Assembly (NCBI RefSeq): GCF_022539665.2 | Contig: NC_081332.1 | Location: 186,001 to 250,000, forward strand | DNA: 64,000 bases | Direction of reading: 5' to 3' | Source of the DNA: Daphnia carinata | Taxonomy: Eukaryota | Shown here: piece by piece, positions 27,107 through 63,953 of the stretch | How the letters are laid out: each line of letters starts with the position of its first letter | Numbering within the stretch: the stretch's first letter is position 1 | Program-made: the position numbers and the translations under genes | Notes under the pieces: generated by a model | Databases searched by the model: none | What the model saw: only the letters and a program-made list of their open reading frames with translations | Told to the model about the DNA's origin: nothing

Positions 27107-30100
27107 TTACGCTGTTGAAGGTTCCATTTTTTCTTCTTTTGCGTAAATTTGTTGTTCTTTGACTGGTACCATGATACATAATTTGGCCACCGGCCGAGTA
27201 CATGGTTTCGGATGATTGGTAAGTTTTACTTTTACCACTCGAACAACATTATCCGTTGTACTGGGGATAACTTCCAACACTTTACCCATCGGCCATTGCC
27301 CACGCAAAGTATTTGGTTCGATTACAAGTACTAGATCCCCCACGGTGACGTTAGGCCTATTTTCTTGCCATTTTCTTCTCTCGGTTAAGTGGGGAACGTA
27401 TTCACGTAGCCATCTGTTCCAAAAGTGCTGAAGTATAGCTTGACTTTGCTGAAACTGCTTGTTGGTTACGTTCATGTCTTCCACTTCGGTAAATTGTAGG
27501 GGCAAGTATGGCCGAGCTCCACCGTGTAGGAAGTGGTTTGGCGTTAACGGATCCGGGTCTTCTGGGTCCATACTAAGATGAGTTAACGGACGGACATTTA
27601 ATAAAGCTGCCACTTCAGCAATTACAGTTCGTAACACTTGATCCGTGACTAGGCAATTTCCGATGCTTGTCTTCATTGCCCGTTTGCAGGATTGTACAAT
27701 CCTTTCCCAAACACCACCAAAGTGAGGCCCATGGGGTGGAGAGAAATGCCACTCAATCTGTTGACAAGCCATTAACGTCTGAAGTTCTTCGTGCTTGGCA
27801 ACAAGTTCTTCTAGAGCTTGTCGTAACTCTTGCTCGGTAGCGACAAGGTTTGTCCCATTGTCGCTGTAAACCACTTTGGGCTTTCTCCGTAGGCTAACGA
27901 AACGGGAGAAGCAGAGTAAAAACTCCTCCATACTGAGCCCGTTGGCCATTTCCAGGTGAACTGCTCGTGTGGTAAAGCACGTGAATAGGCTGATCCAACG
28001 TTTTTCGTGTCTTCTTCCCCGACCACCAACTCTTACGGTCAAGGGTCCGAAATAATCGATCCCTGTGTACGTAAACACCGCCAGATGTGGTGTCAAACGA
28101 TGGACTGGTAGTGAAGCCATTAAAGGAGGACTAGGTTTTGCCGACGTGCGCTTGCAGGGCCAGCAGTTGTTGAGGACAGATTTTACTACTTTACGTCCAG
28201 AGAGTATCCAGTAGCGAGAGAAGAGGTCCGTCAACAATCTCTCGTCTTGACGTGAATGTTTCTAACGTGATAATCCCAAATTATCCTCTTCGTTAGGAGT
28301 TGAGATGCTGGCAGAAGTATGGGGTGTTTAGCTGCATAGTCGATCGGCGCTAGGAGTATACGTCCTCCAATTCGCATCTGTCCATCTTCATCCAAGAAGG
28401 GCTTGAAGTTGCGAAGTTTGGATCGGAGTGGTAGTTCCAGATTCTTGCGAAGGCCATAGACTTCTTCAGCAAAGGCCAATTCCTGCGCTCGTACGATGCA
28501 TTTTGTCAGCGATGTTACCATTTCTTCTACTGTCAGCTCTCCGACAATGGGTTTTTCATCATGAAGTTTTGCTCCTGCGTTGTTGGTAAATCTTCTACTC
28601 CAGGCTAGCACCCGTTGAATCTTCACCAGGCTGGAAAAACGTGTTATACATCGGTCGATGACATGGTTCTCATCTTCCGTTTTGACTGCCAAAACGCGAA
28701 TCACGTTTACGTCTCGTTCCTCAGGCTCCGTAATCTCTTCCCAAATGTACCACTCTGAAGGGTCTAGGTTCAGGAACGCAGGTCCTCGATGGAAGTAGAC
28801 CAATTCGTCGACGTCCTTTGGTTCGATACCCCTGCTGCAGAGATCCGCTGGGTTTAAGTCTCCCGCAACATGACGCCATTGTCGACGACCCGTGTTTCGG
28901 AGTATTTTTCCGATGCGGTTGTTGACGAAGACTTCAAATCGACACGTCTTCGAGTGGATCCACCGCAGCACTGTTTGCGAGTCTGTGTGGAAGGTTACTT
29001 GCCTCAAATCAATTTCTAGTTCACGACAAATCGTGAGAGCAATGTTGAGGCCTTCTACTGCCGCCTGTAACTCCAAACGGGGAATCGTGAGACCTTTTAC
29101 CGGTGTGACGTGCGTTTTCGACAAGACGAATGACACGTTGACGGAATAGTCTTCAAATACAGTGCGGAAGTAGGCTACTGCTCCGAATCCTTTGGAGCTT
29201 GCATCCGTGAAGACGTGGAGGCACTGTTGAGTATATCGTCCTCGTTTGAAACGGAAGCATCTCCGTACTGAGAGCGACTCCATATTTTCCAGATGATCGT
29301 ACCAGCAATAGAAACGTTGACTCAATGTTTCCGGTACGATGTCATCCCAACCGATCCGTTCTTCGTAGGTCCAGATGTCTTGGAGTAAAGACTTCATAAC
29401 GAAGATAACTGGTGCAACCAGCCCCAACGGGTCGTAGACGCTAGAGATGATGCTTAGGAAGGCTCGCTTCGTGAGTGTCACGTTGTGTGGCGGCTTCCGA
29501 ATCTTGAAAGTCAACACATCTCGTTCGCTGTCCCACATTACTCCCAGCGTTCTTTCGACGGGGAGTTTCTCCAAATCCAGATCCAGAGTTGGTGACGCGA
29601 GGCCAAATTCTCGTAGCGCAGCTATCACCATTCGCGATGACGACGTCCATTTTGTCAGATTGAAACCGCCTAACTGGAGAAGGGACTTCATTTGGCGGGA
29701 CCGTTTGATGACCTCGTCTTCGGAGTGGAATGAGTCGAGATAATTATCTACGTAGAAATTACGTCGAACGCTATCGGCTACGTCTGGAAACTGGCTGCGG
29801 TAGTCGTCGGCTGTCCTGTTGAGGGCAAAGATGCAGCTCGTTGGGGATGAGATAGCTCCGAATACGTGTACCGTCATCTGGTACGTTAACGGAGCTGAAT
29901 TACTGCCAGGCGTCCGGAAGAGAAATCGGAAGGCTGCCTGGTCTGCTTCCGGGACTTTCACTTGGTGAAACATTTTCTCAATGTCCGCTCCGACTGGTAC
30001 GAGGTTACGACGGAAGCGGATGAGCACACCAAGCAGGTTAACGAGTAAGTTAGGTCCTCGGAGCAGATTTTGATTTATCGATGTGCCACCAAACTCAGCA

Positions 30101-31329
30101 GCTCCATCGAATACGACACAAACTTTGGTCGATGAGCTGGAAGGGCTCACGACCCCGTGGTGTGGCAGGTACCACGTCTTGTTTGTCTCCGTCTGGGCTT
30201 CTTGGGTCGTTAGGAGCCGGGCGTGTTTTAACCCGATGTACTCCTTGACTACTGCATCGTACTTATGAGCAAACTCTTCATCCCGATGAAAACGTCGTTC
30301 AAGAGCGTAGAGCCTCTTCAATGCAGCTGCCCGATTGTTTGGGAGATTTACTTCGTCGGCTTTCCACATTAAGCCAACTTGATACTGGTTGCCAATACGT
30401 TTTACTGACGATTCGAGGATGCGTTTCCCACGTAGGTCATCCTCCGATAGAACAGGTGGTTCTATTTCTACTTCGTTGGCCTCAAGGTGCCAAAACTTCT
30501 TCACCAGCTCGTTAAGGTCTTCGGAACGTTCCACGAAGGCCAGATGAGCGATGAACGGGCGTCCGTCTTGTGGTGGACCTGTTTGTCCACCCAGACACCA
30601 GCCAAACGGCGTCTTGAAGGCGATGGGCCCAGTCGTTCCAGCCGGCGGCTTGATGGAAGCTACATGATGGTGGGCCTCTGCGACGTCGATTCCTATCAGC
30701 ACGGTCACGTCCTCTTCTTGCACGGTTGGGACGTCAATACCACGTAGGTGTTTCCATGACTCCAACTGTCGAGGGTCGATCGGCGAATTCGGCGTCACCT
30801 TCAAATTGTCGACGGCGTAAGCGTGTTTGACTTCAAACTGGCTGCTACCATCACGAGACGTTAGGGTGAAGTTTACTACGGAAGCCGTGACGTTAGACAT
30901 GGCTCCGTCATACGAGACGACTTTGATGCGTTTTGATGGCCCAACGAGTCCCAACTTTCTTACTAGGTCGCTCCGAATCAGCGTGGTGTCGCTTCCGGTA
31001 TCAAGGAAACCGAAAGTGTCGACCCACGTTTTTCCAACTCCAACACGAACCGGTACGATCTTGAAACGTATACGTCGTTTTACTGTTTCCAGATGGGTCA
31101 AGGTCCCAAGGAAAGCTGTCGAAGATGGCGCTGATGGAGCAATTGGATCCGCTAGCCTCCTCAATGGGATGAATTCGGATCCGTGAAGCAAGGTGTGGTG
31201 TCTGTTTCCAGTACAATCAGCGACAGTACAGCTGACATCCCTGGGACATTCCTTGCGTTCGTGTTTTCCCGTAAGACATAACAAACATCTTCCGGACCTG
31301 AATACCTTCTCAGCCCTTTTCGTGGGCAT
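27107..31329 (-). pseudogene. BEL/Pao Gag knuckles-PR-RT-RNase H-integrase polyprotein, frameshift near 28235
   Basis: CLLCLTGKH..C..C..HHTLLH, FLDTGSDTT, WYLPHHGV, FYVDN, FTDASSKGFGA, IPRLELQAA, GIDYFGP, SDNGTN. Confidence 0.95.
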
Positions 31330-32242
31330 GTGCTGTGTAATACTGGCGATCTCTCAGGAAGTCGTTGATCTTGAATCGTTCGGGGTTGAACTTTCATTTC
31401 GTCTACTTCCGTTCGAAGGTCTTCGATTTTAGCGGACAAATCCACCTTAACCACGTCAATTTTCTGATCCAAACCGTCCAACGTGTGGTGTGCTTCCCGT
31501 ACTAACGTGTTGTTGGCCGCGATATCTTTGGACGTGATTCTTGAACTATCAATGAGCTTACTAAGTTGTTCGCTCATACTCCTTAACGCCTTGTGAGGGT
31601 TTCTGTGATGGAAGTTGTATTTGCTTCCATCTGGGCCCTTGCCGTTTCCAACTTCAATTCCAGCTTTAGCATCTGTTCTTCTTTCTCTAACTCCCCTTGG
31701 GTTGCTTGTTGGAAAAGGCTGGCTGGTTTAGAGTTGGTACGCCTTTTTTCAGATAGCGTGGTACTACATGTGATGTCCGAAGCTACTGTCTCAATCGAAC
31801 TGGCGGACTGACTTGAGGAAGTGGCGTAGCGATTTGCGAATTTGATAACTTTAACGTGGTCGGTTTCGAAGTCTACTTCCCACTTGTCACATGCTTGACG
31901 TTGTTGCTCAGTCAGGTCGGATAAACTTTCTGTATACTGATTGTGAATTGCTTTGACTTCGTCGTATATACGAATCAATTCGTCACGCCATGCGGTTACT
32001 TGTAACTTCTTTACTCTGATGGCTCCCATCTTGTGGTCTTCCACTGCCTTTCTGAGTTGTGTCGTTAACTTCGTGTGGGCCGCCTTTCTCTTCCCACGTT
32101 TCTTCTTGAGATCGTTTTCGGGAAGTAATGGCCGTTCACTCTTCTGCCGTTCAGGTTTCGATGCGTCTACCATTGGGTTCGGGCCGTGTTCCCAAATGTG
32201 GCCAATTTCCATTTTTTCGGCTTTGAGTGCGGCTTCACTCAT
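31330..32242 (-). pseudogene. BEL/Pao gag N-terminal coiled-coil region (frameshifted)
   Basis: ORFs 31583-32242 and 31161-31577 lie between the PBS and the knuckles; helical, charged composition. Confidence 0.75.
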
Positions 32243-33135
32243 GACGTAGAAACGTTATTAAAGGCTGATAGAGTCACACGTTAACGGATGTCGATGATTC
32301 ACGTAGATACACCGATCTTTTTGTCAGATGGCAAACACGTGGTGGATAGTGGGTGCTTTCAGGCTGGCGTGGACGTCTGCCAAAGGTTTACAGGGAAAAA
32401 TACCCGAAAATTTACAAATCAAGCGAGGGTTTTTACTAACGAGGACGGGAATTGCACGTGTTCGTCAAATCCCGGGTTTCGGCACCATTTGTTGCTGACT
32501 CCGTGCCGAGTAGCAACAGAGAGAAGATGGTGATGATGAGGGTGAATGAAGTTGAAATAAAAATGACGATGATTTAACAAAGGGACGGCTTTATTTCCAA
32601 ACTTGGAAAAGGAAAGGGAAAACTGACACGCTTGATTTGGACAAACTGAGGGGACGAGAAATGAGGCTGGGACAAAAAGGCAGCTGAACGAGACATAAAT
32701 TGGAGACAACTTGTCTGGGTGGCTAACAATACTATTACTACCCCTTTCCCATGGAAAGGAGTAAAAAGAAAACAAAAAATGGGCACACAAATACTAGACA
32801 GGCCCGTGCCCCTTACAGCCCTGCCCGCGAGGGCAGCACCGTAGGTGACAGTGAAGTATTGTAGAAAAGACCACGCTTCGTCATCCGTTAAGACATCCCA
32901 AAGGTTTCTTTCTGTACAAACTCCACACATTCCCATTTTGCAGCTATCTCCACTAAGCTAGTCTCCCACTTTGCGAAACGTTGCTGTATTGGCCTTAAAT
33001 ATGGATTGAGACAAAAGCTACCAACGTCAGGCCACTTGACTGCTGGCACGGCCTCTAAGACCACACCATCACTCCATTTAAACACGGCTTCAAAAACCAT
33101 TATCAATCAATGTTCTTTACGTTCCACGTTTTCAA

Positions 33136-33182: not shown

Positions 33183-34243
33183 ACTGGCGAATTATGAGTG
33201 ACTAGTTAAGAAACTTAACCAAGGGCCACAACAGGTGTTTAACAAATGGATAAGAAATTTATTTCCCCAATTCGTTTAAGCAAATTACTTGTGTTCTGAA
33301 TGTTACTTTACCCAAAGTGAGACTGGCAGACCGAAGTGAGATTCTTTTTACTTAACATACACTTATGAACACCGTCACCGTGATGGTAGGATTCAGCGAC
33401 CTGGCAAAGGGTTCATTCTTTTAGTGATTGAAAAGAATGACTTTACGTTATTAAAGACAAATTGTAATAGGAAAAATGAACTCGGGAAGGCGTTACCACA
33501 ATGCGGAATATATTTTATTCTAATAGGCCAAAGATAATAAAGGCATTACACAGATATAAGATATAAATGGGAAACGGAAATACAAAATGGAGTCAGGCGA
33601 ATTTAGTCTTACCGTCACCGCTGTGGCGAAGATGGAATAAAGATGTCAAACGTTGAAGAGAAAAGATAAGGAAAAACGGGACTTGTCGGTCGCACAAGAA
33701 GCGATGAAGACGCTCACAATAATTATTGAATAAGAACAAATTAAACTCATTATATTTGAAGAAAATAATAACACTTGGAGCACTAAGAATGAGAGCTGGA
33801 ACTAAAACTGGAACTAGAACAAGAGAGAGCTGAAGAACTGTGGAACTAACTTTTGGGGACAAAAAGGGTATCCTTTTATACGTTTTACATGTTTGAGGGA
33901 AACATAGCATTTCCGACAGATGAGCTCCGGATATAAGTTATTGAATATCTCACGCAGCAACATTTCTTATTCAGGAAATGTATGGCGCGATGTTCTACGC
34001 ATTAGGCTCATCCAATCAGCAATAAGCAGGATGTAAAGTATAATATAAAAATAGAATTCAAGGAAATGTCAATGACACTTGAATTACTATATTTATAATG
34101 TATACTTTAAATATAATGCATAACAAACATAATATATAATTTTAATATAAAGAAAACAAACAATGAAGATAAAATATAATCAAAAGTTGTATTTTGGTGA
34201 CTTCGTTACATCACTCCCGGCGGTGCGAGATTACGTCCCGTAA

Positions 34244-35928
34244 TCAGACTTGGTAAGCGAAATCAGGCTCCGGTTCTTGAATTGGGCGACAGCATAACTT
34301 GCTAATAAGTCCGAAAAATCCACAGCCATAACAAATGCGTAAGAAAAGTAGACCCAGGAGGCATAGTACACCGATGAAGAAATAATTTTTAATAGTTTCC
34401 CACCAGCTGGTATAACTAGCCACTCCAGATGCGGATAATAAGACGTTGGTGACACTTGGACGATTATTGGTTGAAAACTCACTCGGCGAATGTTCATTCA
34501 TAGCTGCGGCAATATCAGCCATTATACTCATATGATCCATAATAGTTTCACTATACGCAGGGTTACTTTTATGTTCATAATAAAAAAATTTCACGTCTTC
34601 ATACCGAAAAGAATGCGCAAGAGTTTGTATTGGTAACACGATACTTGCGTTCACAGGCTTCCAAGTGTTATTGCGAAACGCATAAGGTATGTCATTGAAG
34701 TTCACAAATCCATTTGTCCAATAACACGGCGAATATTTAACGAGTTCCCAACCGTCCAAGTTAATTGTATAATTTTTAAATTTTGGTTGCGGTCCGCAAG
34801 ACGTTACGACTGTTTCGAAAGTCACATTTAAAGGTTTACACGAGATGACAATGGCGGTTTTTCCAAAGGCTTGCAATTTTGTGCACTTGGGTAGATCTAG
34901 ATGTGAAGCAGCTAACCAGCCATTATATTGTGCTGCAATAATTGCTCTTACATGTTTCGCATTTCTTGAATCACACTGTAAGATTTGAATTAATCGTGAT
35001 AATTCATTTTCATGGTCCGTAAGTTGATCACGAACATATTGTAAAGTAGCGGGATGGTCCAAATTTTGGCCGCCAGGTGGCGCGAGGTCTGCCAATGTTA
35101 TTGTCGACAAATTTTCCATGATGGCCGCCGTTGTAACGAAGAGTTTTGATTGGCCGAGAATATTAAAGGCATCAGATTTCTTTGAACAAGAGTTTTGTAT
35201 GGGAATACAACGCGGTTGAAAAGTTAAATGAAAATCCAATTGTTTTTTGTCATCTTGAAGGCGAAAAATTTTATCATTTCCCGTTTTTCGTATTAATTTT
35301 CCAATACCAGGTTCAATGAGATGAGCTTTTGGTTCAGATCGTTGAGTATATGTTTTGTCCCAAACTAATGTCAAATGATTATGCGACAAATGACCTGTTG
35401 AGGCAGAAGCAATTCCTATCGGCGTAGAAAAATTACTATCTTCCACATCTTGATATAGGTGAATGTTTTCGAGCACACAACTAATAATTTCCACGTCGAT
35501 CGTTTGTAACCAATGACCAAAAATTTCAGGTTCACGGTCGAATACAAAATTATTTTCCTCAGCAGTCATTTTTTGATCTTCGCACCGAAGACTGTTAATC
35601 ATATCGTTGCACTCATTTGGCGTAGTGTCAAGTGGAATTTTATCCGGCACAATCACCAATTGTCCAAAAAAATTCATGGTGACATGTCGAATTTGTTTCC
35701 ACTTCGCACAAATATATCCTGGAAATTGAACTGCGGCGCGAACTTCACTATGCACTGAATATTGTACGTCAATGGAGTGTTCATCTTTATTTCCGGATGA
35801 CAATCGTCATCCGAAAATTGAATTATTCCCATTTTTGATGATTCAGTACAATCGCATACGGTCGTTTCAAAGGCTCGAACGTGAAGCCCAAAAAGACATA
35901 GCAGTAAGACAATTGGAAAAGGCGACAT
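34244..35928 (-). pseudogene. env: Envelope-like type I membrane glycoprotein, probably class III fusion protein; one frameshift near 35780
   Basis: Signal peptide MSPFPIVLLLCLFGLHVRA followed by VCDC; Cys-rich ectodomain (GYICAKW..NFFG..NEC..C) with NxS/T sites; C-terminal TM YFFIGVLCLLGLLFL with a Cys-rich tail; last ORF before the 3' LTR. Confidence 0.85.
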
Positions 35929-37267
35929 TTCTACATATGTCAAAAAAATAAAAAAAAAACAATACATAAGAAAAATTTAACAATACACAGAGCAGTGGCC
36001 AAAAATATTCTACATCGACATTGGGTTTTTATAATATTTTGGATTATATATATATATAGTTGAAATAAAATAAAAGGTAAAGAAAGAAGAGAAGAGAAGG
36101 TAAAAGTAAAAAACTTTCCGACGGCTTTGAAAGGTCAACGGTCTCCCGTCGGCTTTTCAGTAGCCGCGCTACAGCAAAAGATAGGAAAATAAAAGGGTAT
36201 CGCATTATAACTGTGTTTTGGGCAGAAGGAAAATTTATTTTTTAATCGAAAGTGATATTACTGGGAAGAGGCGAAGATGCTCGTATTTTTCAGAAGGAAA
36301 TAATTGAAAAAGATTGTTTCGTTTAATTATGCGGAGAAGAAAAGAAACGTTTTAAATTCTATGGCGGAAAAAGTCCGTGCGCCAAAGGTCAAACTCAGAT
36401 TTTCGATTTTTTTCTAAGTCCAACGCAATGGAAAAAGGACTTTGTTAGAAACGGAGAGAAAAGATGTGAAACATGAACAGGTGGGCGGAGCTAACGCGCT
36501 TGGAGGGGGACAAGGAATTTTTGGAAATATGAACGCGAGTGGAAGGGGAGGCTTGTTAGTTGCCCTCTGGCAAAATTGGGGAAGTAAAAACATTTTTTCT
36601 TCGCTAGCTGCGAAGTGTTGGAACAAATTCAGTGTTCGCTCGAAAGGGAAAGTGAAAAGAAGTGTAAAGTGAGAGACGCGTTGTGAAAAAAAATCTGGGC
36701 GGTGGCTACATTCAAGAAGAAAAAGTGACTTGGAGATGCAGTAGAAGAGGAATTGTGTGTGTAAAACAATTTGTGCGTTTAGAAGAAAAGTTTTGTTTCT
36801 ACATCATTGATAGTTTTTCATGTTTGTGCTATTGCTGTTAATGTAATTGTATGAAATAAAGGTTTAATAAAATGTTCTAAACTTACTCGGTATCGGATTG
36901 TTAATAATGTTATACTTAAGAAAAACGGAACACAGAATTTAAGGGCATATAATTTTGAAGGAAAACATTTTTCAAAAACACATATAATTTTTAACATCGT
37001 TTATAAGATAAAAAGAAAACAAAAGTGAGAAATAAAATAAAATTCTCTAGTAACATGTTTTGTGCATTCGCTATAACTTTTTTTTTTTTTTTTTTTTTTT
37101 TTTAATTATTATTATTGAGAAAGAATTAAGACAAGACAAGTGTAAGATTAAAAAGTTGTATATAATGAATAATAATATGAAGAAAACAAGAGATAAAATT
37201 ATAAAAGAAATGAATGTGGAAAAAAAACAAACAAAAATAATAGTATAACGAAAACAATAATGAAAGG

Positions 37268-37840
37268 TCAATCATCAATGGTCACGACAATCGGGCCATT
37301 GGGGCGTCTTCCGGCCCGTCCGCAGGTAGGGCAGACGTCTTGTATCCACCATTGGGATAGCGCCCAATTTGGTGGTGGCGGCATGCGGTTCTGTGGGTCA
37401 AGTTCTAAAATTGCTTGAAGGTTTTCCACCGCTCCTTGCCAATTCTCCTCGTATAAAGCGTTTAGTAGCGCCAATCTTAAAACTCCGGTGCGAAGGTAAA
37501 GTTCATGAAGATTTAAATCGCGTCGGGTAGGCCAGGTGGGGCGTGCGGGTTCCGGCATAAGTGTAGCGATTGGCCTTACGCGCACCGGGTTGGATCTTGT
37601 TTGAGGTGGAGCCGGGTTGGGCTGGACCCGGGGTGGAGCACGGATGCGGGTACGGGATGGCAAAGTCACTTACGGTGGGAAAGGTACCCGGGGCGGAACA
37701 GGTGGAGGGGTAATGCGGTTCGATGGCCCCGCTTCCGGCTCATCGAAATCAATTGGCCTTAGCCGCCAAGCACTGTTGGAGCTATGCCGACGAGTGGTGT
37801 ACGGGGAAAGCCGATAATCTCCCGTATGGTCCTTAGACAT
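37268..37840 (-). pseudogene. Gypsy accessory ORF B (~190 codons, Pro/Arg-rich N-terminus, TPR-like + CxxC C-terminus), one in-frame stop
   Basis: ATG 37840; TAA at 37670-37672; the frame continues to EENWQGAVENLQAILELDPQNRMPPPPNWALSQWWIQDVCPTC. Confidence 0.7.
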
Positions 37841-37844
37841 TTTG

Positions 37845-38003
37845 TTAAAATGATTTTTCAAGACTTGTGAGAAAGGATTGATCCCTTTCCTTGCGCCCAC
37901 GTTTGTTATATAAGCAAAAAGTGTCATTGTCAGCTTTCTTGAAATAACTTTTAATGTTTCTTCTTGATGTTGTAAGCAATTCTTCTTTTGTTTCCGAATC
38001 CAT
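37845..38003 (-). CDS. Possible small accessory ORF (52 aa, MDSETKEE...)
   Basis: ATG in an A-rich context; its stop lies 4 nt before the ORF B ATG; shares the ATGGATTCGGA start with ORF A. Confidence 0.35.
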   Translation of the reverse strand: MDSETKEELLTTSRRNIKSYFKKADNDTFCLYNKRGRKERDQSFLTSLEKSF

Positions 38004-38659
38004 TTTTTGTTGCAAAGCAAACGAAGAGATAACCATATATGGGTAACATGAAGAAGGGAATTGATTACAATTTCCAAGAAGTACAAGCATATATAAAAAA
38101 AAAATTTCATTTATAATAAACATATATATATAACAGAATTAACAATTCGTACAACTTAAAAATAACTATAAGAAACAGACAAAAATTGTCGTCAAATTCT
38201 ATTTATATATATTTGAAAATATATATATATATTGAACTGTATTCGCACCCTTGCCGTTCGCTGATCCAATTTCTAATACAGTAGTGTAACACTACTCTTT
38301 CTTCTGCTATTTTTGAATTTCTTTTATTCATTATTAAAACTAACATTTTTTTTTCCAATGTCTACACCAACTGTGGCTCGTAAAAGAAAAGAAAACCCCT
38401 TTTTTTTTCTTTTATTATCATTCGTAAGAGCCAAAATTAAAATTGTATACCCAAAATTTGTATCTAAAGGATAAGTATATTGTTTGTCGGATAAGCGCAA
38501 GAGCAAGAGATACTAAAAGTTGACAAAAGGACACATGAATAGAGTCATAAGAAAAATAACACATACACAAAAGGAATAATATAATAGGCCACACAAAAAG
38601 CACTACAACAAATAAACAAATTTTATAAAGACGATAAAATCTTCAGCTGTCCTGCTTCT

Positions 38660-39199
38660 TTAATTATTCTTGCAGAATCTGCAACGGTAGTGGGGATTCC
38701 AATCCTCAGGAAACCATCCGTAGAGAGGTGGGCTCCTGTTCTCAGGGTCCAAATCCAAAATCCTTTTCAATTTGACAACTGCTTTTCTCCAATTTTCCTG
38801 GCGGATGTGGAGTTGAAGTTCGTCCGCCAAATCTCTGGTCCGTTTCCGCATCTCCCTGTTGAAACGCCTCTTTTCTTTACGCCAGTTGTGTTCGTCTTCT
38901 GAATCTTCAGAATGACATTCTTGGTTTCGGTAGGGTTCTAACATTTCATCACAAATCTTATCGGTTTCATCTTTATACTTTCGTTGTTCTTTAGTCATTG
39001 CTGGATGCAGAAACTCCTCTAAATCCTTCTCCCTCTTGATTTCTTCTTCTTCGTCAGTGCTTTCTATCTCTCCTTCTTCGAGCTTGCACTTTTTTCCCGC
39101 GGGCTCTTCCTCTCCCATGGACAATTGCGAAGTCATCGCCACTTCGATGGTTTGGGCGACGTCCCAGGCGTTCAGCTCAACAGTACTGTCCGAATCCAT
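38660..39199 (-). CDS. Gypsy accessory ORF A (179 aa, acidic N-terminus, TPR-like + CxxC C-terminus)
   Basis: Uninterrupted ORF in AT-rich flanks; ends QENWRKAVVKLKRILDLDPENRSPPLYGWFPEDWNPHYRCRFC; paralogous to ORF B. Confidence 0.8.
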   Translation of the reverse strand: MDSDSTVELNAWDVAQTIEVAMTSQLSMGEEEPAGKKCKLEEGEIESTDEEEEIKREKDLEEFLHPAMTKEQRKYKDETDKICDEMLEPYRNQECHSEDSEDEHNWRKEKRRFNREMRKRTRDLADELQLHIRQENWRKAVVKLKRILDLDPENRSPPLYGWFPEDWNPHYRCRFCKNN

Positions 39200-39254
39200 G
39201 TTGTGCTCAAGATCACCAACAAACTGTTGAATATCTGCCACTATGTGTCACCAG

Positions 39255-39262
39255 CTTATATA
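39255..39262 (-). promoter_or_regulatory. Candidate internal TATA box (TATATAAG) for accessory ORF A
   Basis: Lies between the pol stop (39301) and ATG 39199, followed by an ACAGTT Inr-like motif. Confidence 0.4.
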
Positions 39263-39300
39263 GTCCTTTTTCCATCATTAAAAAAAAAAAAAATTTCAAA

Positions 39301-42300
39301 TTAAAATCCAGCGGTGTATCGAATAGGCTTCCTGCGATTTCTTTGTGGACGTCCGGTGTTCGAGACCGTTTGAGGATCATCTTTTTTCAAATTTTCTTGA
39401 GAAGTTCCAGAATCTTGTGAATTCCGTTGAATGTAATCCGTCTTCATTGGGATTTCCATAGAATTTTGTTGATTTTCCCTTGCTTGAAATTGCTGGTTTT
39501 CAAATCCATTTCCGGTGTGTATTTTCATCTCTTCATCCAGAAGTGCGTTGTTTACGAGAGAAATGTTTACAATTTCTTGGACATCACACAAATCATTAAA
39601 CTCATCTATAAGCCCATCCTCGTTTTTTGATAAATCAATTGTTTGGGTTGAAATCGTTTTACGAAATCGACTCTCAAACTCAAAAGGGGTCTCAAATGGT
39701 GGACAATGTTCGGTCTTCCAAAGCATTGTTTCGTACAAAGGTTTTAATCTGTTAACATGAGTACGTTGACAGATATAAGAGTTATCCGCTATATCTACAG
39801 TATTATTAGAATACACTTTTACTACCCTATATGGTCCTTTATATTTCGAAGTGAATTTCCTGCTATCCCTATCTTTAACTACGCGAATATCCAATAACAC
39901 TCTATCGCCTACCACATATCGTCTTTCTTTGGCGCGTTTGTTATATTGTTCCCTCTGACGCTCCCTAGCTTTTCCGCTTTCTTCTCTAACCCTTTGGAAA
40001 CTATAACGCAAACGTTCCGCTAAATTACCTACATAATCCGAAGAAGATTTAAATGTTTTTGGGGACGCATCAAGAAATTCATTTATTGGAATATTGGGAT
40101 CCCTACCGTGGAGTAAATAATAAGGGGTGTCAAGTGTTGAGGCGTGCACTGAGCTACGATAAGCAAATAATACGTCGTCTAACATATCTTCCCAATTGGA
40201 ATGCTCTCCATCTTTTAATTCTTTCCTTAACATTGTTGTTAATGTCCTATTGAATCTCTCTGTTTCCCCATTACTGGCTGGATTATATGCAGTTGTTAAC
40301 CTTTGATCAATCTTCAATTTCTTACAAAAATATCGAAATAATTTTGAAGTGAAATTAGTCCCACGATCAGAAAGAATTGCTTTTGGTATCCCATGACGTA
40401 CAATTATAGTCTTATATATACACTCGGCTGTTGTTAACGCAGTTTGATCTTTTAAAGCAACTGCTTCTACCCATCGACTAAAATAATCAGTAATAACTAA
40501 AATATAACTATTTCCGTTAGGCGAAATCGGAGTAATAGGCCCTAAAAAGTCCATTCCAATTACTTGAAAAGGAGCTTTGGCGACTTCATGAGGGTGCAAA
40601 ACTGCTCTATATGTAGAGGAAGTGTTAGTATACATATTTCGCAAGCTTGGCAATACTCTTTAATATCGCCCCTCATGTTAGGCCAATAATAATGGTTTTT
40701 TACTTTTAAATACGTCTTATAAAATGCTAAATGCCCTCCCATCGGTGCGTCATGTAATTCCTTGAGCACTAGATGGCGGAGCGCTACAGGTAACACCAAT
40801 TGATAATTTACGTCGCTGCGCTTGCTATTTGACAAAGGCAACTCATGCCGATAAAGAGTACCTTCGATGACTTCAAAATATTCAATTTCATTTACCCAAT
40901 CTGGTCTAGTTTGTTGAAAAATTTCATCCAATTCTCCTTTCTCTAAATAATTCCTAATAGCTATACAAAGTTCATCTTCTAATTGTTTCTCACAAATAAA
41001 CTTAATATTTTTCCCAGTTTGAATACTCGCCACCTTTAAACGTGACAAACAGTCAGCATTTTGGTGAATACGACCAGGCCTATACTTTAACTCATAATTG
41101 GTCGCAGCTAATAATATAGCCCATCGTCCTAATCTCCCATTGTTATCTTTTTGATCCTTAAGCCACTGTAGTGGACGATGATCACTAATAATCTCGAATG
41201 GCTTATCCAAAAGATAATGTCGAAAATGTTTAATTGCATCAATCACTGCTAAAGCTTCTTTCTCTGTAGTGGCATATTTCATCTCAGCTTTTGTTAATTG
41301 TCTACTAGAATACGCTATCGGATGTTCGTGGCCATTTTGTATCTGCGAAAGTACCGCTCCTATTCCATAATCACATGCGTCTGTGAAAAGTAAAAATTTT
41401 TCATTGAAATTGGGGTAAACTAATACTGGGGGCGTAACGAGAGAAGTTCGTAATTTTTCAAAGGCATTTTGCTCCTCAGTACCCCAAACAAAAGGTTTTT
41501 TGCTAAGGTCTTTATGAGTTAATCTGGTCAATGGCTTAGCTATTGATCCAAAATTTTGAATAAATCTCCTATAATATCCGGCTAATCCCAAAAATGATCT
41601 TACTTCGTCTATAAAAGAAGGTGCTTTATAATTCACTATTTTATCGATTTTCCCTGGATCTGGCTTAATTCCTTCAGTCTTGGCCTAAATAATTTACCGA
41701 TCGTTTAATAAACTGGCATTTTTTTAGTTTTAATTTTAAATTTGCATCCTGTAGTAGTTGAAAAATTTCCCGAATATCCCTCAAATGGTCCTCGAAATTA
41801 TCCGAAAAGATTATTACATCATCCAAATAAACTAATGCCTTACTTCCCAAAACGTCTTTCAGTACATAATTCATTAGTCTTTGAAATGTGGCAGGTGCAT
41901 TGCACAAGCCAAATGCCATACGCTTAAATTCGTATAGATTATTTTCTACCACAAATGCTGTTTTTTCTATAGCTGGCTCATATACCTGAATTTGCCAATA
42001 TCCCGCAGCTAAGTCGAGAGTAGTAAAAAATTTCTTCCCATACAATTTATCCAATGTTTCATCTATCCTTGGCATAGGAAACGAATCTTTCTTTGTGATA
42101 CTATTTAATTTCCGATAATCGACGCAAAACCTGACTTCTCCACCTTTTTTCTCAACTAAAACCACAGGTGAAGCCCATGGCGAATGCGAGTATTGAATTA
42201 CATTCGCATCAAGCATTTCTTGTACCTTATCCTCCAATAATTTTCTTTGATTATTTGTAACTCTATATGGGCGTTGTCGAATAGGGCCTCGTCCCTGTGT

Positions 42301-43239
42301 ATCAATTGTATGTTTTATAAGATCTGTGTTGCCTAATTCTGAATCTTTTGCAGCGAACAAGTCGTGAAAGTCATTTAATAATTTAGCGAGCTGTGTTTGA
42401 AATTCGGGGTCGACCTCCGGAATTACAATAGGCTCTTTTACTACGTTAGGCTTGTCCTCAACTTTATTTAAAGAAATTTTTCCGATCGCTCGAGTAGTAA
42501 CTTCGATGCCACCTAACTTCGTATCCCTAGGAATTTTGACTTGATTTAACGAATGATTTTCAACTAGAATATTATATTTTCCATCTCTCGATACTTTTCC
42601 TACGAACTCCTCAATAAAAACGCCGGCCGGCAAATCTTCTGCTGGGGTAAATATAAAAGCTGTATTCGGCGGAACAAACGGAAATGACCCTTTCATTTGC
42701 GCGGCAATTACTAGCGACGTCTGACGAGATAACGTCGTCTTTTTGACCGAAGTAACTGCCATGTCCGGAATGCTAGAAATAGCTGATCCCTGCTTATCTC
42801 TTGCTAAATAAATGCTCTTGGCTTCTCCATCAAGTCGAAATCCGTGTTTCTGGATTGCGTCCCATCCAAGGATACAGTCCTCAGAAACACCATTTGTAAC
42901 AATAAACTCTTGCTCCAAAACTGACTCTCCGTATCGCACGGGCAAAGTAACGCTCCCCAGCGTATGTAATTTTTTCTCCCCTACATCGTATAAATCAAAA
43001 TCAAGTTGACTGCAGATCACTTGACCTCTTTGGGGTAATTTCTTAAATAATTTCTCATGAATAATACTCTTAGACGCTCCTGTATCGAATAATGCTTGAA
43101 ATGGGATCTGATGAATTTTCAATGGAATTCTCGGTGTCGATTCATTCGTTATGGTTGTTAATTTTGCGACTTGTCGGGATTTACACGGAGGCTCCCTATC
43201 AACTGACCCGAAGTTACAGTTGATACCTATTGGTTTCCC
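39301..43239 (-). pseudogene. pol: Gypsy pol (PR, RT, RNase H, integrase), frameshifts near 41680 and 40640
   Basis: [86 protein letters not shown]. Confidence 0.96.
43173..43239 (-). promoter_or_regulatory. -1 programmed ribosomal frameshift signal
   Basis: G GGA AAC in the gag frame (43239-43233), 7-nt spacer, 9-bp stem TATCAACTG/CAGTTGATA. The -1 frame is open into the protease. Confidence 0.85.
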
Positions 43240-46009
43240 TGATTCGGAGGCGGACCTGGAATGTTAGGCCTACTCTGGTTTTTTGCCTTTGGACAGTTGT
43301 TTGATTTATGGCCAATTTCCCGACATGAATAGCATATTGGTGGCTGAGCTTGTTCCAAACTTTGCCGTTGATATTTGTAACAATTTGTCTGAGAATGACC
43401 CTTATATCCACAAAAATTGCAAATCAGCTGTGGCTGCGTAGGCTTATGGTGAGAATCACCAGCTGGTTTTGAAAAAGGGGTTTTATGAGCTGTAGGCCTA
43501 CCCGGGAATTTATTGAAAGGTTGTGCGCCATTGTTATTGTTATTCTGCTGCGGAGGTCTCCAATTCCTATCCTGGATACTGTTACTAGTTTGGAACGAAA
43601 CTTGCTTTTTATACGGTGCGCTTGATACGTTTTTATCAAATTGCAATTGCCTTACCGCTTGCATTAGCTCAAGAAGTGCGCTCTTAATTTCCTCCTTTTC
43701 AGTTTTTGGGTCATCGACTTGTTTGCTTCCCTGTCTGATATTTGCTACGGCATTTTTGACGAATTCTTTTTGCTCCAATATTATTTCCTTTAGTTCTTTT
43801 AATTCTGCGTCTTTGGTGTCAGGAGGCTCAGTCACTGCCCTAATAAAATCATGTTTTTCCCTATTCGTTTCCATGGCCTCCAGTCGCAATGCATACATTC
43901 GTGTTGCCGAAATAAGATCATTAAAATTCTTAAATTCTTTATATTTAACTTTCGATTGTAATTTGGAATCCAACCCCTCTATAAATTTTTGCATAAGAAT
44001 TATAGCAAAAGATGCTTCTGAATAGCCTACAGGATATGCGCGTTTGAAAATTTCCTGCAAACGATGAGCATATTCTATAATCTTTTCCCCTGGCTTACGC
44101 TTAGCTTTATTAAACTTCTTTTGATAAAAGTCAGCATTTTCGTCACCATGAAAATGATCAAGAAGAGATTCTTTAATTAAAGCATAGTTGTGAGGATGAC
44201 CCTTCAAAGTTGCCTGAATAATCGAGAAAGCTTTATCAGCCTATTTTGCCCTTAACATCTGAATAATTTTCCCCTCAGACCAACCTGATCCTTCTACTAT
44301 ACTTTCAAAAGATTCTAACCAGGAGTCAAAACGCACCAGGGGATTTCCAGAAAAAGAAGGAAGTAGCTGTAAACGGGAAAAAGTGTGTTGATTATTTTGG
44401 AAATCGTTCAAATCATCGACCGTGGCCGTCATGTTTGAACAAGTTTCCGCCATGTTTGGATTAAATTTTAAAAAATTCAAAGTTCTTCCCTGGGAATTTT
44501 GAGGGTGTTCTGAAATGTCGTTTGTAATTGCCTTAAATTCCCCTGCGTTGTATCCGACTGGCTGGGTGGGCGGGCTCGAAGACAGGGTAGAGGGTACGTA
44601 GGACAGTGTAGGGTTTGTGACTGATTGAAATGATAGTTTCTTCTGCGCGACCGTTTCCTCTTTGGAATGCTTCCCGACAGCGGCGATGTTTGTTGGATTG
44701 GCGTGCTTTGTTGCTGCGTTGGTCTCGTTTGTATGAACGTCAGCGATTGTCTCAATGTTTGTTCCGTTTGCGTGATTATTGGCTTGATGTCGCTCGCCTG
44801 CTGTGCGAAGAACGGGTTGTTGGCTTCCGGAAAATTGTTCAGTTTGTCCAAAAGGAATATGATTTCCGGCTGTAGTACCTCCAAATTGTTGATGAGTTGT
44901 AGTGTCTTTAGGTATGCCGCTAGGTTGGCTACTTCCTTCAGGAACGTTCGTTGGGACGCCAGCAAGATCTCTTCCAGATGAAGGGATGTGTCGCTCACTT
45001 TGGTGATGATTTCCACGTATCTCCCGTCCTCGTCTCTGTCGGTGATGTCCCGTCTTGGAACGAAGCCGAATAGTTCTCGCTTTGTTGTTGGTGTGACCAC
45101 TTGAAGGTCTATTATGTTGTAAATTTGTCCGTGTAGGCAAGTCAGAACCTGTCTCGCGTGTCGTGTGAAAATTTTCTTGAGCTCCGTCACAATTTCCTCC
45201 GTCTGCTTCTTCGTCTTCTTCGTGATCGGTACACTGGCTTTCACCTCCAGAATGGATGTCAGCTACTTCAGAAGTGTCTTCGGTTGTTTCCGATCCGTTA
45301 GTATTAATTTTTCGGCGTCGTAATTCCTCTGAATGATCCCAGATGATCCCAGATTTTCGGGTCGCTCGATTGGAAGTCCTTCTCCCTCTCCTTGAGGCTC
45401 TTGATGGCTAGCAGTAGGAACGGTAGCTGGCTGTTCGGTAGTTGGAAGATGGTGTCCCCTTTCTTCTTGATCTCTTGGAACAGGTGCTGGAGGTTGACGT
45501 TGAGCTGGTCTTCCATTGGTTGTCTTTTTTTTTGCAAACAAACCCGAGACTTGTTCAAAAAAAGCGTTTGTTGGGGAAGTGTTTGTGGAAACGGTTTTCT
45601 TGGGTGAAAGACGGTTTACTAGTTGGGCTATGAAGGAAGGAGAATTTCTTACGGTCGAGGTATCAGCTTTACTTTGAGCTCGTGGTTTGCGAACGTTTGA
45701 AAGGTCTACTGGCTTTACTAACTCATACGCAGAGTTCGATCTTAACTTTCTTAGCTGGGGATTATTTGGAATTGCACTAGGCTTCAAAACAGGAGAGGCA
45801 GATTTCCTGATAGTTTCTGTTGCTTTTCTCGAAGTTTTATTACCCGTAAACTTATCAGATCCAGCAAGATTTGAAGTGGAAGTTTTATCAAAATTAAGGG
45901 TTCTGGCTACACCTTCATCAATTTGAATAACTGGCTCAATAGGACTTTTAATAGTGGATACAGGTGTGCGAGAAAGTTTATGCTTACTAGAAAAAATATT
46001 ATCCGTCAT
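43227..46009 (-). pseudogene. gag: Gypsy gag with long N-terminal extension, capsid and two CCHC knuckles; in-frame stops at 45263 and 44241 and one frameshift
   Basis: LPSFSGNPLVRFDSWLESFE..W, CNFCGYKGHSQTNC, CYSCREIGHKSNNC. ORFs 45263-46009 and 44477-45244 are co-frame, as are 44241-45140 and 43227-44207. Confidence 0.88.
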
Positions 46010-46847
46010 TGTGGGTGAGTTCGATAGATCGCTGCCACCATTATGTAAAGCATTCTTTTAGTGATTGAAAAGAATGACTTTACGTTATTAAAGACAAATT
46101 GTGATAGGAAAAATGAACTCGGGAAGGCGTTACCAGAATGCCGAATATATTTTATTCTAATAGGCCAAAGATAATAAAAGCATACACAGATATAAGATAT
46201 AAATGGGAAACGGAAATACAAAATGGAGTCAGGCGAATTTAGTCTTACCGTCACCGCTGTGGCGAAGATGGAATAAAGATGTCAAACGTTGAAGAGAAAA
46301 GATAAGGAAAAACGGGACTTGTCGGTCGCACAAGAAGCGATGAAGACACTCACAATAATTATTGAATAAGAACAAATTAAACTCACTATATTTGAAGAAA
46401 ATAATAACACTTGGAGCACTAAGAATGAGAGCTGGAACTAAAACTGGAACTAGAACAAGAGAGAGCTGAAGAACTGTGGAACTAACTTTTGGGGACAAAA
46501 AGGGTATCGTTTTATACGTTTTACATGTTTGAGGGAAACATAGCATTTCCGACAGATGAGCTCCGGATATAAGTTATTGAATATCTCACGCAGCAACATT
46601 TCTTATTCAGGAAATGTATGGCGCGATGTTCTACGCATTAAGCTCATCCAATCACCAATAAGCAGGATGTAAAGTATAATATGAAAATAGAATTCAAGGA
46701 AATGTCAATGACACTACAAATTACTATATTTATAATGTATACTTTAAATATAATGCATAACAAACATAATATATAATTTTAATATAAAGAAAACAAACAA
46801 TGAAGATAAAATATAATCAAAAATTGTATTTTGATGACTTCGTTACA

Positions 46848-46907
46848 GATCGAACCTGGAATCTCCTGATCCGTAGTCAGGCGCGTTATCCATTGCGCCA
46901 CACATCC
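46848..46907 (-). pseudogene. tRNA-Arg(ACG) truncated by the Gypsy insertion in its T-arm
   Basis: LTR end ttaca abuts gatcgaacctgg; the 3' 13 nt of the tRNA are missing. Confidence 0.9.
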
Positions 46908-47519
46908 ACTGGCGAATGATGAGTGACTAGTTAAGAAACTTAACCAAGGGCCACAACAGGTGTTTAACAAATGGATAAGAAATTTATTTCCCCAATTCGT
47001 TTAAGCAAATTACTTGTGTTCTGAATGTTACTTTACCCAAAGTGAGACTGGCAGACCGAAGGGAGATTCTTTTTACTTAACATACACTTATGAACACCGT
47101 CACCGTGATGGTAGGATTCAGCGACCTGGCAAGGCTTGCAGGGTTCTTTAGTGGAAATGTTTTGTACGATACTCCATTCAGTGAACCAAATTCCTTCCTC
47201 GAAATAGAAGGGATGCCTCCAGTCATTGCGGTAAGTGAAGTATTGTAGAAAAGACCACGCTTCGTCATCCGTTAAGACATCCCAAAGGTTTCTTTCTGTA
47301 CAAACTCCACACATTCCCATTTTGCAGCAATCTCCACTAAGCTAGTCTCCCACTTTGCGAAACGTTGCTGTATTGGCCTTAAATATGGATTGAGACAAAA
47401 GCTACCGACGTCAGGCCACTTGACTGCTGGCACGACCTCTAAGACCACACCATCACTCCAGTTAAACACGGCTTCAAAAACCATTATCAATCAATGTTCT
47501 TTACGTTTCACGTTTTCAA

Positions 47520-63681: not shown

Positions 63682-63754
63682 GCCCGGTTAGCTCAGTCGG
63701 TAGAGCGCGGGACTTTTAATCCTGAGGTCGAGGGTTCAAGTCCCTCATCGGGCG
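63682..63754 (+). tRNA. tRNA-Lys(TTT)
   Basis: Third copy. Confidence 0.93.
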
Positions 63755-63871
63755 ACATGAAATCATATTCTATAATTCAAATATTGTGCATACATGCCCA
63801 ATGCTGGGAATGTTTATTGAAAAAAGGCTTACGGTTCATTGTTACTCGAGTAAAATTGTAATCAGTTTGTG

Positions 63872-63953
63872 GACGAGGTGACCGAGCGGTTAAGGTGATG
63901 GACTGCTAATCCATTGTGCATTGCACGCGTGGGTTCGAATCCCATCTTCGTCG
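63872..63953 (+). tRNA. tRNA-Ser(GCT)
   Basis: Third copy. Confidence 0.93.

What the first reader, a model, noticed from the sequence alone, without database searches (positions are those of the whole stretch)
37268..39199. Two paralogous accessory proteins sharing an unrecognised TPR-like/PP-W-W/CxxC module
Seen: ORF A QENWRKAVVKLKRILDLDPENRSPPLYGWFPEDWNPHYRCRFC aligns without gaps to ORF B EENWQGAVENLQAILELDPQNRMPPPPNWALSQWWIQDVCPTC. The pattern ENW..AV..L..IL.LDP.NR.PP...W....W.....C..C is kept despite heavy nucleotide divergence. The N-termini are opposite in character: acidic with a KKCK NLS-like motif in A, Pro/Arg-rich in B. Known: A...L..AL.LDP.N is the TPR helix-B signature. Inference: selection on a protein module; the single CxxC per chain might form an inter-subunit zinc site in an A/B dimer. 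Possible roles are transactivation, RNA export or anti-silencing (speculative).
Basis: partly seen in the sequence, partly recalled or inferred. Interest (0 to 1): 0.85.

Follow-up and report, generated by a model that had tools for sequence, protein, structure and literature searches.

The report
Duplicated accessory genes of water-flea retrotransposon
An envelope-bearing jumping gene, likely from a water flea, carries two related small protein genes between its enzyme and envelope genes; a relative sits in the same slot of a related element, and the proteins likely work in the nucleus to boost the element's own expression.

Summary
ORF A (38660-39199, 179 aa) and ORF B align without gaps over 72 codons (25 identical; beyond all 5000 shuffles). 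They lie between pol and a gB/rhabdovirus-type env of a young Ty3/gypsy errantivirus (LTRs 98% identical) whose named relatives are all Daphnia. A profile search found about 25 more family members. All named ones are Daphnia hypothetical proteins. One sits right after pol in a related element and four more clusters are tied to pol or env. The conserved core is a predicted helical hairpin plus a DP..R..P..W tail, TPR-like only in its second helix. The CxxC is optional (5 of 30), and A and B are not resolved as sisters, so an obligate zinc-bridged A/B dimer is unlikely. Each gene has a TATA box 63-72 nt upstream, as do three of four post-pol ORFs in related elements. Best reading: a new accessory protein family, likely made from internal promoters and likely nuclear adaptors that promote the element's expression. 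Expression and function are untested.

The parts
38660..39199 (-). ORF A, 179 aa, open from ATG to stop: acidic leader (about 1-104), K[KR]x[KR] motifs at 36, 55 and 119, predicted helical hairpin (102-150), DP..R..P..W tail, CxxC (173-176)
38672..38887 (-).
37268..37840 (-). ORF B coding island (ATG 37840), one frame with an in-frame stop at 37670-37672; the 3' piece has in-frame ATGs at 37558 and 37384
   Evidence: GC mostly 0.5-0.67 across the island against 0.13-0.40 in the flanks
37322..37537 (-). 72-codon module in ORF B; core 37322-37450
39255..39262 (-). TATA box 63 nt before the ORF A ATG; candidate internal promoter, no initiator-like match
37906..37912 (-). TATA box 72 nt before the ORF B ATG, with an initiator-like hexamer 33 nt downstream; candidate internal promoter
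37078..37267 (-). U-rich stretch after ORF B (58% T on the sense strand) ending in an A26 run that starts at 37103
46044..46847 (-). 5' LTR; TATA-like hexamer at 46734; followed by a primer-binding site at 46029-46040
   Evidence: The 12-nt PBS equals the one listed for Dpul_errantivirus_4 and differs by one base from two elements typed tRNA-Leu in the supplement of PMC13524379
33414..34210 (-). 3' LTR, 14 mismatches and 2 gaps in 798 columns against the 5' LTR; its last few bases are missing
43227..46009 (-). gag region in several pieces, with zinc knuckles at the 3' end
39301..43263 (-). pol (protease, RT, RNase H, integrase) in three pieces; its stop lies about 100 nt before the ORF A ATG
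34244..35926 (-). env-like glycoprotein, class III fusion type, with a change of frame near its 5' end

Best explanation
ORFs A and B are two diverged members of a family of small soluble accessory proteins carried between pol and env by an envelope-bearing Ty3/gypsy element, likely of a water flea; they are likely transcribed from their own internal TATA promoters and likely act in the nucleus as adaptors that raise or protect the element's own expression. SHOWN: the homology, the position, the family, its link to pol or env in 5 clusters, the TATA boxes, no transmembrane segment, and the stop in B. PREDICTED: a roughly 50-residue helical hairpin. INFERRED: short mRNAs are made independently of the LTR; K[KR]x[KR] motifs import the protein; the invariant hairpin and tail bind one host factor or a second copy of the protein; the swappable flank (acidic and Trp-dotted in type I, a separate conserved domain in type II) recruits transcription or chromatin machinery; the CxxC is a subfamily add-on. 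In this copy A may be intact and B is probably a damaged second copy. I put about 0.9 on 'element-encoded accessory family under selection' and about 0.45 on the nuclear self-regulator mechanism.
For: Homology beyond chance, with divergence concentrated at third codon positions. Family: a three-sequence profile against 1.84 billion representatives gave 155 hits at E<=0.001. Of the 150 listed, 25 are short proteins with one module, scoring 51-100 bits on a family profile against at most 28 for the other 125. That profile was built largely from them, so the gap is partly circular. All 9 of 21 looked-up clusters that carry a species name are Daphnia. Linkage: L001 has the gene about 90 nt after the pol stop and upstream of env. 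Gene models P0075, P0218, P0119 and P0167 join the module to pol pieces. Promoters: TATA within 110 nt of the ATG in 5 of 6 post-pol ORFs, background 0.196, binomial P = 0.0015, test framed after looking; initiator-like hexamer in 4 of those 5 against 19 of 144 overall. Nuclear: K[KR]x[KR] in 10 of 21 members against 2.1 in shuffles (0 of 2000 reach 10); highest 19-residue hydropathy 1.17, so no transmembrane helix. Leader of A net -18; 9 of 13 type I leaders are net negative. Hairpin pLDDT 87-91. Precedent: sORF1 of fly MDG1 elements is nuclear and has its own short transcript (PMC11952523); Tor elements use an internal promoter after pol (PMC4402516).
Against: No DNA-binding domain is recognisable in type I members, so how the protein would reach the LTR is unexplained. 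ORF B has no K[KR]x[KR] motif and a basic leader. 11 of 21 members lack the motif, and members are related, so the counts are not independent. A's TATA has no initiator-like match and L011's post-pol ORF has no TATA. The gene is dispensable for the wider lineage: 8 of 11 loci with contiguous pol and env have a gap under 500 nt and no ORF, and L004, L011 and L023 carry unrelated ORFs there. Only 1 of 40 env loci held the module, though most are too short to show the slot. 16 of 21 clusters have no context seen, so unlinked host copies are not excluded. dN/dS could be estimated only between A and B, where it is saturated (NG86 0.84/2.63; two other methods failed). This copy's gag, pol and env are all interrupted, so A's open frame does not prove present use.
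Confidence: 0.45

Rival explanations
1. Silencing suppressor that hooks Argonaute/PIWI proteins through WG/GW dipeptides in disordered flanks, with the hairpin as a dimerisation or scaffold unit (Ago-hook role of WG/GW motifs is recalled knowledge).
For: [DE]WG occurs 7 times in 6 of 21 members' flanks against 0.3 in shuffles (0 of 2000 reach 7). It lies in the leader of type I and in the tail of type II. ORF A and several type I members have GW in the module tail.
Against: The motif was chosen after looking and the members are related. A and B have no WG in their flanks. The Gly before the tail Trp is 10 of 15 and is replaced by N or E in others. GW alone is not enriched (307 of 2000 shuffles reach the count).
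Confidence: 0.15
2. One reading: A and B work as a heterodimer bridged by one zinc held by a CxxC from each chain.
For: Both window proteins carry the CxxC. In all 5 carriers it sits 6 residues after the tail aromatic, so it is inherited and not chance. Lone CxxC pairs can form inter-subunit zinc sites (Rad50 hook, RNase E zinc link; recalled).
Against: CxxC is absent from 25 of 30 members, including 9 of the 14 type I members that reach that region. L001 has a single gene without it. A scores 173 against another element's protein and 100 against B, and B is a long branch of unsure place. B has an in-frame stop. A zinc-bridged homodimer in the CxxC subfamily remains open.
Confidence: 0.1
3. 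Cytoplasmic assembly or budding adaptor that mimics the Vta1 VSL hairpin and engages Vps4/ESCRT for release of enveloped particles.
For: The top VIA-align hit is the yeast Vta1 C-terminal domain (2rkl, Z 6.6, rmsd 1.7, 53 of 53 residues). P0070 has a weak Pfam Vta1_C hit (E 0.2). VSL is a helical hairpin that dimerises and binds Vps4 (PMC5413351). The element has an env.
Against: Z 6.6 is tied with unrelated hairpins and far below the value of about 13 that the tool asks for helical matches. Only 1 of 32 members hits Vta1_C. The turn residues are variable in the family and no Tyr is conserved in the hairpin, whereas Y303 and Y310 are marked at the Vps4 interface (my mapping of positions is from recall). 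NLS-like motifs point to the nucleus.
Confidence: 0.1
4. Rev/CERV-like factor that binds the genomic RNA and exports it from the nucleus.
For: A has an Arg/Lys-rich helix (net +8 over residues 106-122). CERV of Cer1 is a nuclear Ty3/gypsy accessory protein whose Cys loop is needed for RNA export (PMC10309623).
Against: The same segment has net charge -3 to +5 in the other 31 rows, so the basic character is not conserved. The cysteines are optional. CERV is 517 aa and spliced from gag exons.
Confidence: 0.1
5. A captured fragment of a host TPR gene riding along without function.
For: 125 of the 150 listed profile hits fall outside the family, most of them long multi-repeat proteins; 5 scanned have TPR Pfam hits or none of the family tail. 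GC at third positions is 0.50-0.53 in A and B against 0.29-0.34 in gag, pol and env, which fits a foreign origin.
Against: Seven positions are at least 90% invariant across 32 members that are 23-51% identical to A. The tail motif is in 20 of 25 members and 1 of 125 others. Synonymous divergence exceeds amino-acid divergence. A remote TPR origin is possible, neutral carriage is not likely.
Confidence: 0.05

Closest known systems
HSV/gB-type 'ancient errantiviruses' of Branchiopoda (Chary and Hayashi, PMC13524379; abstract, sections 5 part 1, 14 and 22, passages, and 30 Branchiopoda rows of supplementary table 1 read)
   Same: LTR-gag-pol-env Ty3/gypsy element with a class III-type env, the same or near-same PBS as three listed elements, Daphnia relatives.
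   Different: The parts I read describe three ORFs only; 'accessory' has 0 occurrences in the two texts I could search. One search listing counts 2 occurrences in a longer held version that I did not see. Their first filter allowed at most 1000 nt between pol and env, with a manual 3000-nt extension; here the gap is about 3370 nt.
sORF1 of Drosophila MDG1-group elements (PMC11952523, passages read)
   Same: Small accessory ORF of a Ty3/gypsy element, predicted helical, nuclear, with its own short transcript.
   Different: Upstream of gag, made from the LTR by early polyadenylation, in elements without env. Sequence similarity was not tested.
CERV of C. elegans Cer1 (PMC10309623, passages read)
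   Same: Nuclear accessory protein of a Ty3/gypsy element with a Cys motif and predicted multimers.
   Different: 517 aa, spliced, shares exons with gag, cysteines invariant and essential. Here about 180 aa, a separate gene, cysteines optional.
Tor3b/4b elements of Oikopleura (PMC4402516, passages read)
   Same: Internal promoter in the space after pol, independent of the LTR.
   Different: It drives env, mapped by 5' RACE. Here the promoters are only predicted and precede non-env genes.
Orf A (rv-cyclin) and Orf B of walleye dermal sarcoma virus (PMC3185748, passages read); Vpr/Vpx of HIV-2/SIV (recalled)
   Same: Accessory genes of complex retroviruses; rv-cyclin has an acidic activation domain. 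That orf a/orf b and vpr/vpx are duplicate pairs is recalled, not seen in a call.
   Different: True retroviruses, spliced transcripts, unrelated folds. An analogy only.
Tetratricopeptide repeat (Pfam PF07719 and kin)
   Same: Helix-turn-helix whose second helix ends in L[DE]LDP.N; aligns weakly to designed CTPR chains (E 0.016-0.035).
   Different: One unit, bulky residues at positions 8 and 27, a long first helix, and a family-specific tail.

Membership tests
Ty3/gypsy errantivirus, HSV/gB-type env | Two LTRs, PBS, and pol in the order protease-RT-RNase H-integrase | tested here: met
Ty3/gypsy errantivirus, HSV/gB-type env | env-like class III fusion glycoprotein downstream of pol | tested here: met
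   Signal-like start and C-terminal hydrophobic stretch in the translations. Among 28 aligned relatives 9 hit Monjiviricetes_fusion and 5 hit Rhabdo_glycop_FD at E<=0.01; the window's own env hits the latter only at E 0.02. The env was not folded.
Ty3/gypsy errantivirus, HSV/gB-type env | Intact gag, pol and env, with several near-identical genomic copies | tested here: not met
   All three are interrupted in this copy; copy number could not be tested because no genome is held.
TPR repeat | Helix B signature at positions 17, 20, 24, 28, 32 | tested here: met
   W 31/32, A 23/32, hydrophobic at 24, L 31/32, P 30/32; position numbers recalled, register seen in the CTPR alignment
TPR repeat | Small residues at positions 8 and 27 | tested here: not met
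   L28/M2 at 8 and I30/F1/M1 at 27; small fraction 0 at both
TPR repeat | Tandem repeats and a score above the Pfam cut-off | tested here: not met
   One stretch per protein in nearly all members; best TPR_2 14.6 bits against 27, 5 of 32 members hit at all
Vta1 VSL domain | Helical hairpin fold | tested here: inconclusive
   Z 6.6, rmsd 1.7, 53 aligned, tied with unrelated hairpins
Vta1 VSL domain | Conserved Vps4-contacting tyrosines | tested here: inconclusive
   No Tyr is conserved in the hairpin columns, but no residue-level alignment to Vta1 was printed
Inter-subunit zinc clasp (Rad50 hook / RNase E zinc link type) | Conserved lone CxxC across the family | tested here: not met
   5 of 30 members; fixed spacing in those 5
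Inter-subunit zinc clasp (Rad50 hook / RNase E zinc link type) | Zinc-dependent dimer | not tested
   Needs purified protein; no complex model was obtained
Retroviral-type transactivator from an internal promoter (foamy-virus Tas type, recalled) | Internal promoter upstream of the accessory gene | tested here: inconclusive
   TATA in 5 of 6 post-pol ORFs, P 0.0015 post hoc; no transcript data
Retroviral-type transactivator from an internal promoter (foamy-virus Tas type, recalled) | DNA binding and activation of the LTR | not testable with these tools
   No DNA-binding domain recognised; needs reporter assays

The most novel reading that the evidence does not exclude
One clade of water-flea errantiviruses has independently become 'complex', like HIV or foamy viruses: it keeps a swappable accessory slot between pol and env where each gene has its own TATA promoter, and the commonest cargo is a new hairpin module that docks on one host silencing or transcription factor, is fused to interchangeable effector flanks, and has been duplicated and diversified (A/B) in an arms race with the host's small-RNA defence.
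Probability: 0.25. Interest if true: 0.8.

Novelty: new variant of a known kind. Interest (0 to 1): 0.55.

Why it matters
Envelope-bearing Ty3/gypsy elements are described as three-gene elements, and only a few animal retrotransposon accessory proteins have a known job (CERV, sORF1/2). This is a family of about 25-30 known sequences, now sitting as 'hypothetical proteins' in Daphnia annotations, that can be defined by a profile and tied to one integrase clade with a variable, promoter-bearing slot. Daphnia is a tractable model, so what these proteins bind and whether they counter silencing can be tested directly. No paper describing the family turned up in six full-text searches; subscription journals and Repbase entries were not searchable, so it may be annotated there.

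Tried and rejected
No whole genome is held, so copy number and dN/dS among copies could not be computed. No sequencing run was listed for 36900-39400, which says nothing on expression. Word-index search with ORF A alone: 0 of 28 candidates; with the family alignment: 8 hits, type II-like. Viral contig scans with integrase, the env alignment and P0070 found no relative; the family alignment had no stretch conserved enough to scan with. Single-sequence fold of A was poor (pLDDT 57) and was not searched. Foldseek on the module model: no match at E<=0.001 in PDB or viral structures; weak rows include TPR, Vta1-C and UVR-domain proteins. VIA-align: no chain at Z>=8; the tail (residues 67-90 of the model) was barely tested. 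PDB sequence searches: only weak TPR hits. Protein atlas: no usable hit for A or P0070, which shows neither novelty nor absence. No Pfam family for the module passes its cut-off in any member. The L023 post-pol ORF is unrelated to the family. [ST]P enrichment was not found. Earlier-findings look-ups by sequence and place were empty. Rejected: recent tandem duplication of A to B (no DNA similarity; A is closer to other elements' proteins). Not settled: whether B's stop is bypassed in vivo. It overlaps a GTAAGT donor-like hexamer and an in-frame ATG at 37558 precedes the whole module, but both sides look coding by GC and the rest of the copy is also damaged, so a nonsense lesion is the simpler reading. 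Rows left out: three near-copies (P0230-P0232) from the module tree; fused gene models and near-copies from the motif counts (21 members kept). bioRxiv supplements were not seen.

Full report
Setting. The finding lies inside a 13.4-kb LTR element on the minus strand. The LTRs are at 46044-46847 and 33414-34210 and differ at 14 positions plus 2 gaps in 798 columns. Pfam gives zinc knuckles, then protease, RT, RNase H and integrase in Ty3/gypsy order. A glycoprotein gene lies at 34244-35926. Its 68 database relatives are Daphnia proteins wherever a species is named, at most 64% identical over near full length, and some hit class III fusion families. The host is therefore inferred to be a cladoceran; no genome is held. 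The PBS matches elements that Chary and Hayashi list as HSV/gB-type errantiviruses of Branchiopoda (PMC13524379, supplementary table 1). gag, pol and env are each interrupted in this copy.

Observation. Both peptides are present as quoted. The pair scores 101 against a shuffle maximum of 58 in 5000 shuffles. Core nucleotide identity by codon position is 23, 27 and 16 of 43, and 14 of 21 identical non-Trp residues use different codons, which is the pattern of selection on protein. dN/dS between A and B is saturated and not reliable. ORF A is open from ATG to stop. ORF B is one GC-rich island from 37840 to 37268 with an in-frame stop at 37670-37672.

Relatives with context. An env alignment pulled 40 metagenome loci. 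One of the 40, L001, holds the module, in a 202-aa ORF that starts about 90 nt after the pol stop, the position of ORF A. It has the hairpin and the DP..R..P tail but no CxxC and an unrelated N-terminus. Fifteen loci have both integrase and env. Of the 11 in which pol runs into env on the contig, 8 have a gap under 500 nt with no ORF and 3 (L001, L004, L023) have a gap over 2 kb with a small ORF. L011, which is circularly permuted, also has an ORF after pol. The window, L001, L004 and L011 form one integrase clade (100/100); L023 lies outside it. The L004 and L011 ORFs have a C-terminal hydrophobic segment (hydropathy 2.3-2.4) and the L023 ORF has two CxxC pairs; none matches the family. The slot is thus variable in content.

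The family. A profile of A, B and the L001 module, run against 1.84 billion representatives, gave 155 hits at E<=0.001, 150 listed. Most are long multi-repeat proteins that match only the second helix. Twenty-five are short and match through the tail; they score 51-100 bits on a family profile against at most 28 for the rest, a gap that is partly circular, and 20 of 25 carry the tail motif against 1 of 125. Nine of 21 looked-up clusters carry a species name, all Daphnia pulex, magna or sinensis hypothetical proteins. Five of the 21 have context, and all five point to the element: L001 with its cluster mate P0075, which is fused to gag and pol pieces; P0096, whose locus tag is next to env hit P0047; and P0119, P0167 and P0218, fused to pol pieces. 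The other 16 have no context that I could see.

Anatomy. Across 32 aligned members the positions equal to A's W137, I147, L148, D151, P152, R155 and P158 are at least 90% invariant, and T121, L124, L128, I132 and W167 nearly so. With this alignment AlphaFold2 gives a long helix (102-133), a three-residue turn and a second helix (137-150) at pLDDT 87-91, and a tail at 58-66. A tree splits type I (disordered leader; includes A and B) from type II (a conserved N-terminal domain; includes L001) at 97/92. B is a long branch (1.83) of unsure place, and A scores 173 with P0096 but 100 with B. So A and B are old paralogues or B came from another element; a recent tandem copy is unlikely. The CxxC is in 5 of 30 members, all type I, always six residues after the tail aromatic. 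In TPR register the helix B positions fit and the small positions 8 and 27 do not (numbering recalled). The module is best called a TPR-like hairpin, not a TPR protein.

Expression signals. TATA boxes lie 63 nt before A and 72 nt before B, and 99, 97 and 70 nt before the post-pol ORFs of L001, L004 and L023; L011 has none. Such boxes are rare on the sense strand of these loci (4 in 7070 nt for L001, 3 in 6073 for L004). With a spacer background of 0.196, five of six gives P = 0.0015; the test was framed after looking, and after I had read an earlier scan note that mentions TATA boxes before accessory genes of another Gypsy family. Four of the five have an initiator-like hexamer 31-35 nt downstream, against 19 of 144 for all boxes; A does not. 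U-rich stretches follow both genes. Internal promoters after pol are known from Tor elements (PMC4402516, passages).

Mechanism. No member has a transmembrane segment. Ten of 21 have a K[KR]x[KR] motif against 2.1 in shuffles, and 9 of 13 type I leaders are net negative and most carry scattered Trp, as acidic activation domains do (established knowledge). One invariant compact module with exchangeable flanks is the layout of an adaptor. I therefore favour a nuclear adaptor, made early from its own promoter, that binds a host factor through the hairpin and tail and raises or protects transcription of the element (0.45). Everything past the predicted fold is inference. Against it: no DNA-binding part is visible, B lacks the basic motif, and most related elements do without the gene. 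Rivals are an Argonaute hook (0.15; [DE]WG enriched post hoc but absent from A and B flanks), the zinc-bridged A/B dimer (0.1), a Vta1-like budding adaptor (0.1; top fold hit at noise level), a Rev/CERV-like exporter (0.1; basic helix not conserved) and a neutral captured fragment (0.05).

Comparison and novelty. Accessory ORFs in Ty3/gypsy elements are a known kind: sORF1/2 of MDG1 elements (PMC11952523, passages), CERV (PMC10309623, passages) and bdelloid ORF3s (PMC5408684, search listing only). The D. pulex LTR survey (PMC2996953, passages) showed no env or third ORF in the 12 of 19 places displayed. The errantivirus paper does not mention accessory genes in the texts I could search. Six full-text searches found no description of this family. 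I rate it a new variant of a known kind: a new protein family in a variable, promoter-bearing slot of an env-bearing clade, duplicated in this element.

Verdict. Real, selected, element-borne, and larger than the two ORFs. The zinc heterodimer is unlikely to be the core function. Interest 0.55.

Noticed in passing
window 46848-46900 and 33390-33414: The element is inserted inside a tRNA-Arg(ACG) gene of a 685-bp tandem array (about 20 units, 46848-60400). The right flank resumes in the tRNA T-arm region; the left junction is rearranged and no target-site duplication is seen.
   Followed up: partly
window 27107-32254, minus strand: A BEL/Pao-like LTR element, judged by eye from the translations, lies directly beside the Gypsy element among degenerate copies of the same tRNA-Arg repeat; further ORFs at 20326-23618 were not examined. 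The array may be an insertion hotspot.
   Followed up: no
window 44477-45262 (minus); L011 4549-6036 and L022 3171-4355: A long second frame overlaps the 5' part of gag (261 codons here; 496 codons inside the 1125-codon gag of L011). No similarity between them was found by tblastn. It may be an overprinted gene of this clade or a result of frame damage.
   Followed up: partly
L023 4600-4908: A 103-aa ORF right after pol with two CxxC pairs, an acidic run and a textbook TATA plus TCAGTT at +31; its closest relatives L020/L021 lack it. Unrelated to the A/B family.
   Followed up: partly
L004 1830-2396 and L011 12020-12922: Post-pol ORFs of 189 and 301 aa with a C-terminal hydrophobic segment and no Pfam hit: other cargo in the same slot.
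   Followed up: partly
L018 8595-9215: An acidic ORF downstream of env, no Pfam hit and no TATA before the first ATG.
   Followed up: no
L001 2647-2960 (type II N-terminal domain): About 100 conserved residues ahead of the hairpin in type II members, with no PDB sequence match; not folded.
   Followed up: partly
window 37078-37103: An A26 run about 165 nt after the ORF B stop, the longest homopolymer in the element. It could be the trace of a polyadenylated transcript copied into the element, or an ordinary spacer run.
   Followed up: no
window 61240-63953: A second tandem tRNA array with a unit of about 1134 bp holding Met, Lys, Ser and Gln genes.
   Followed up: no
window 35927-37267: A 1.3-kb non-coding spacer before env, strongly pyrimidine-rich on the sense strand (GC skew 0.35 on the plus strand), with a TA run about 125 nt before the env ATG; a possible env promoter or splice acceptor region.
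   Followed up: no
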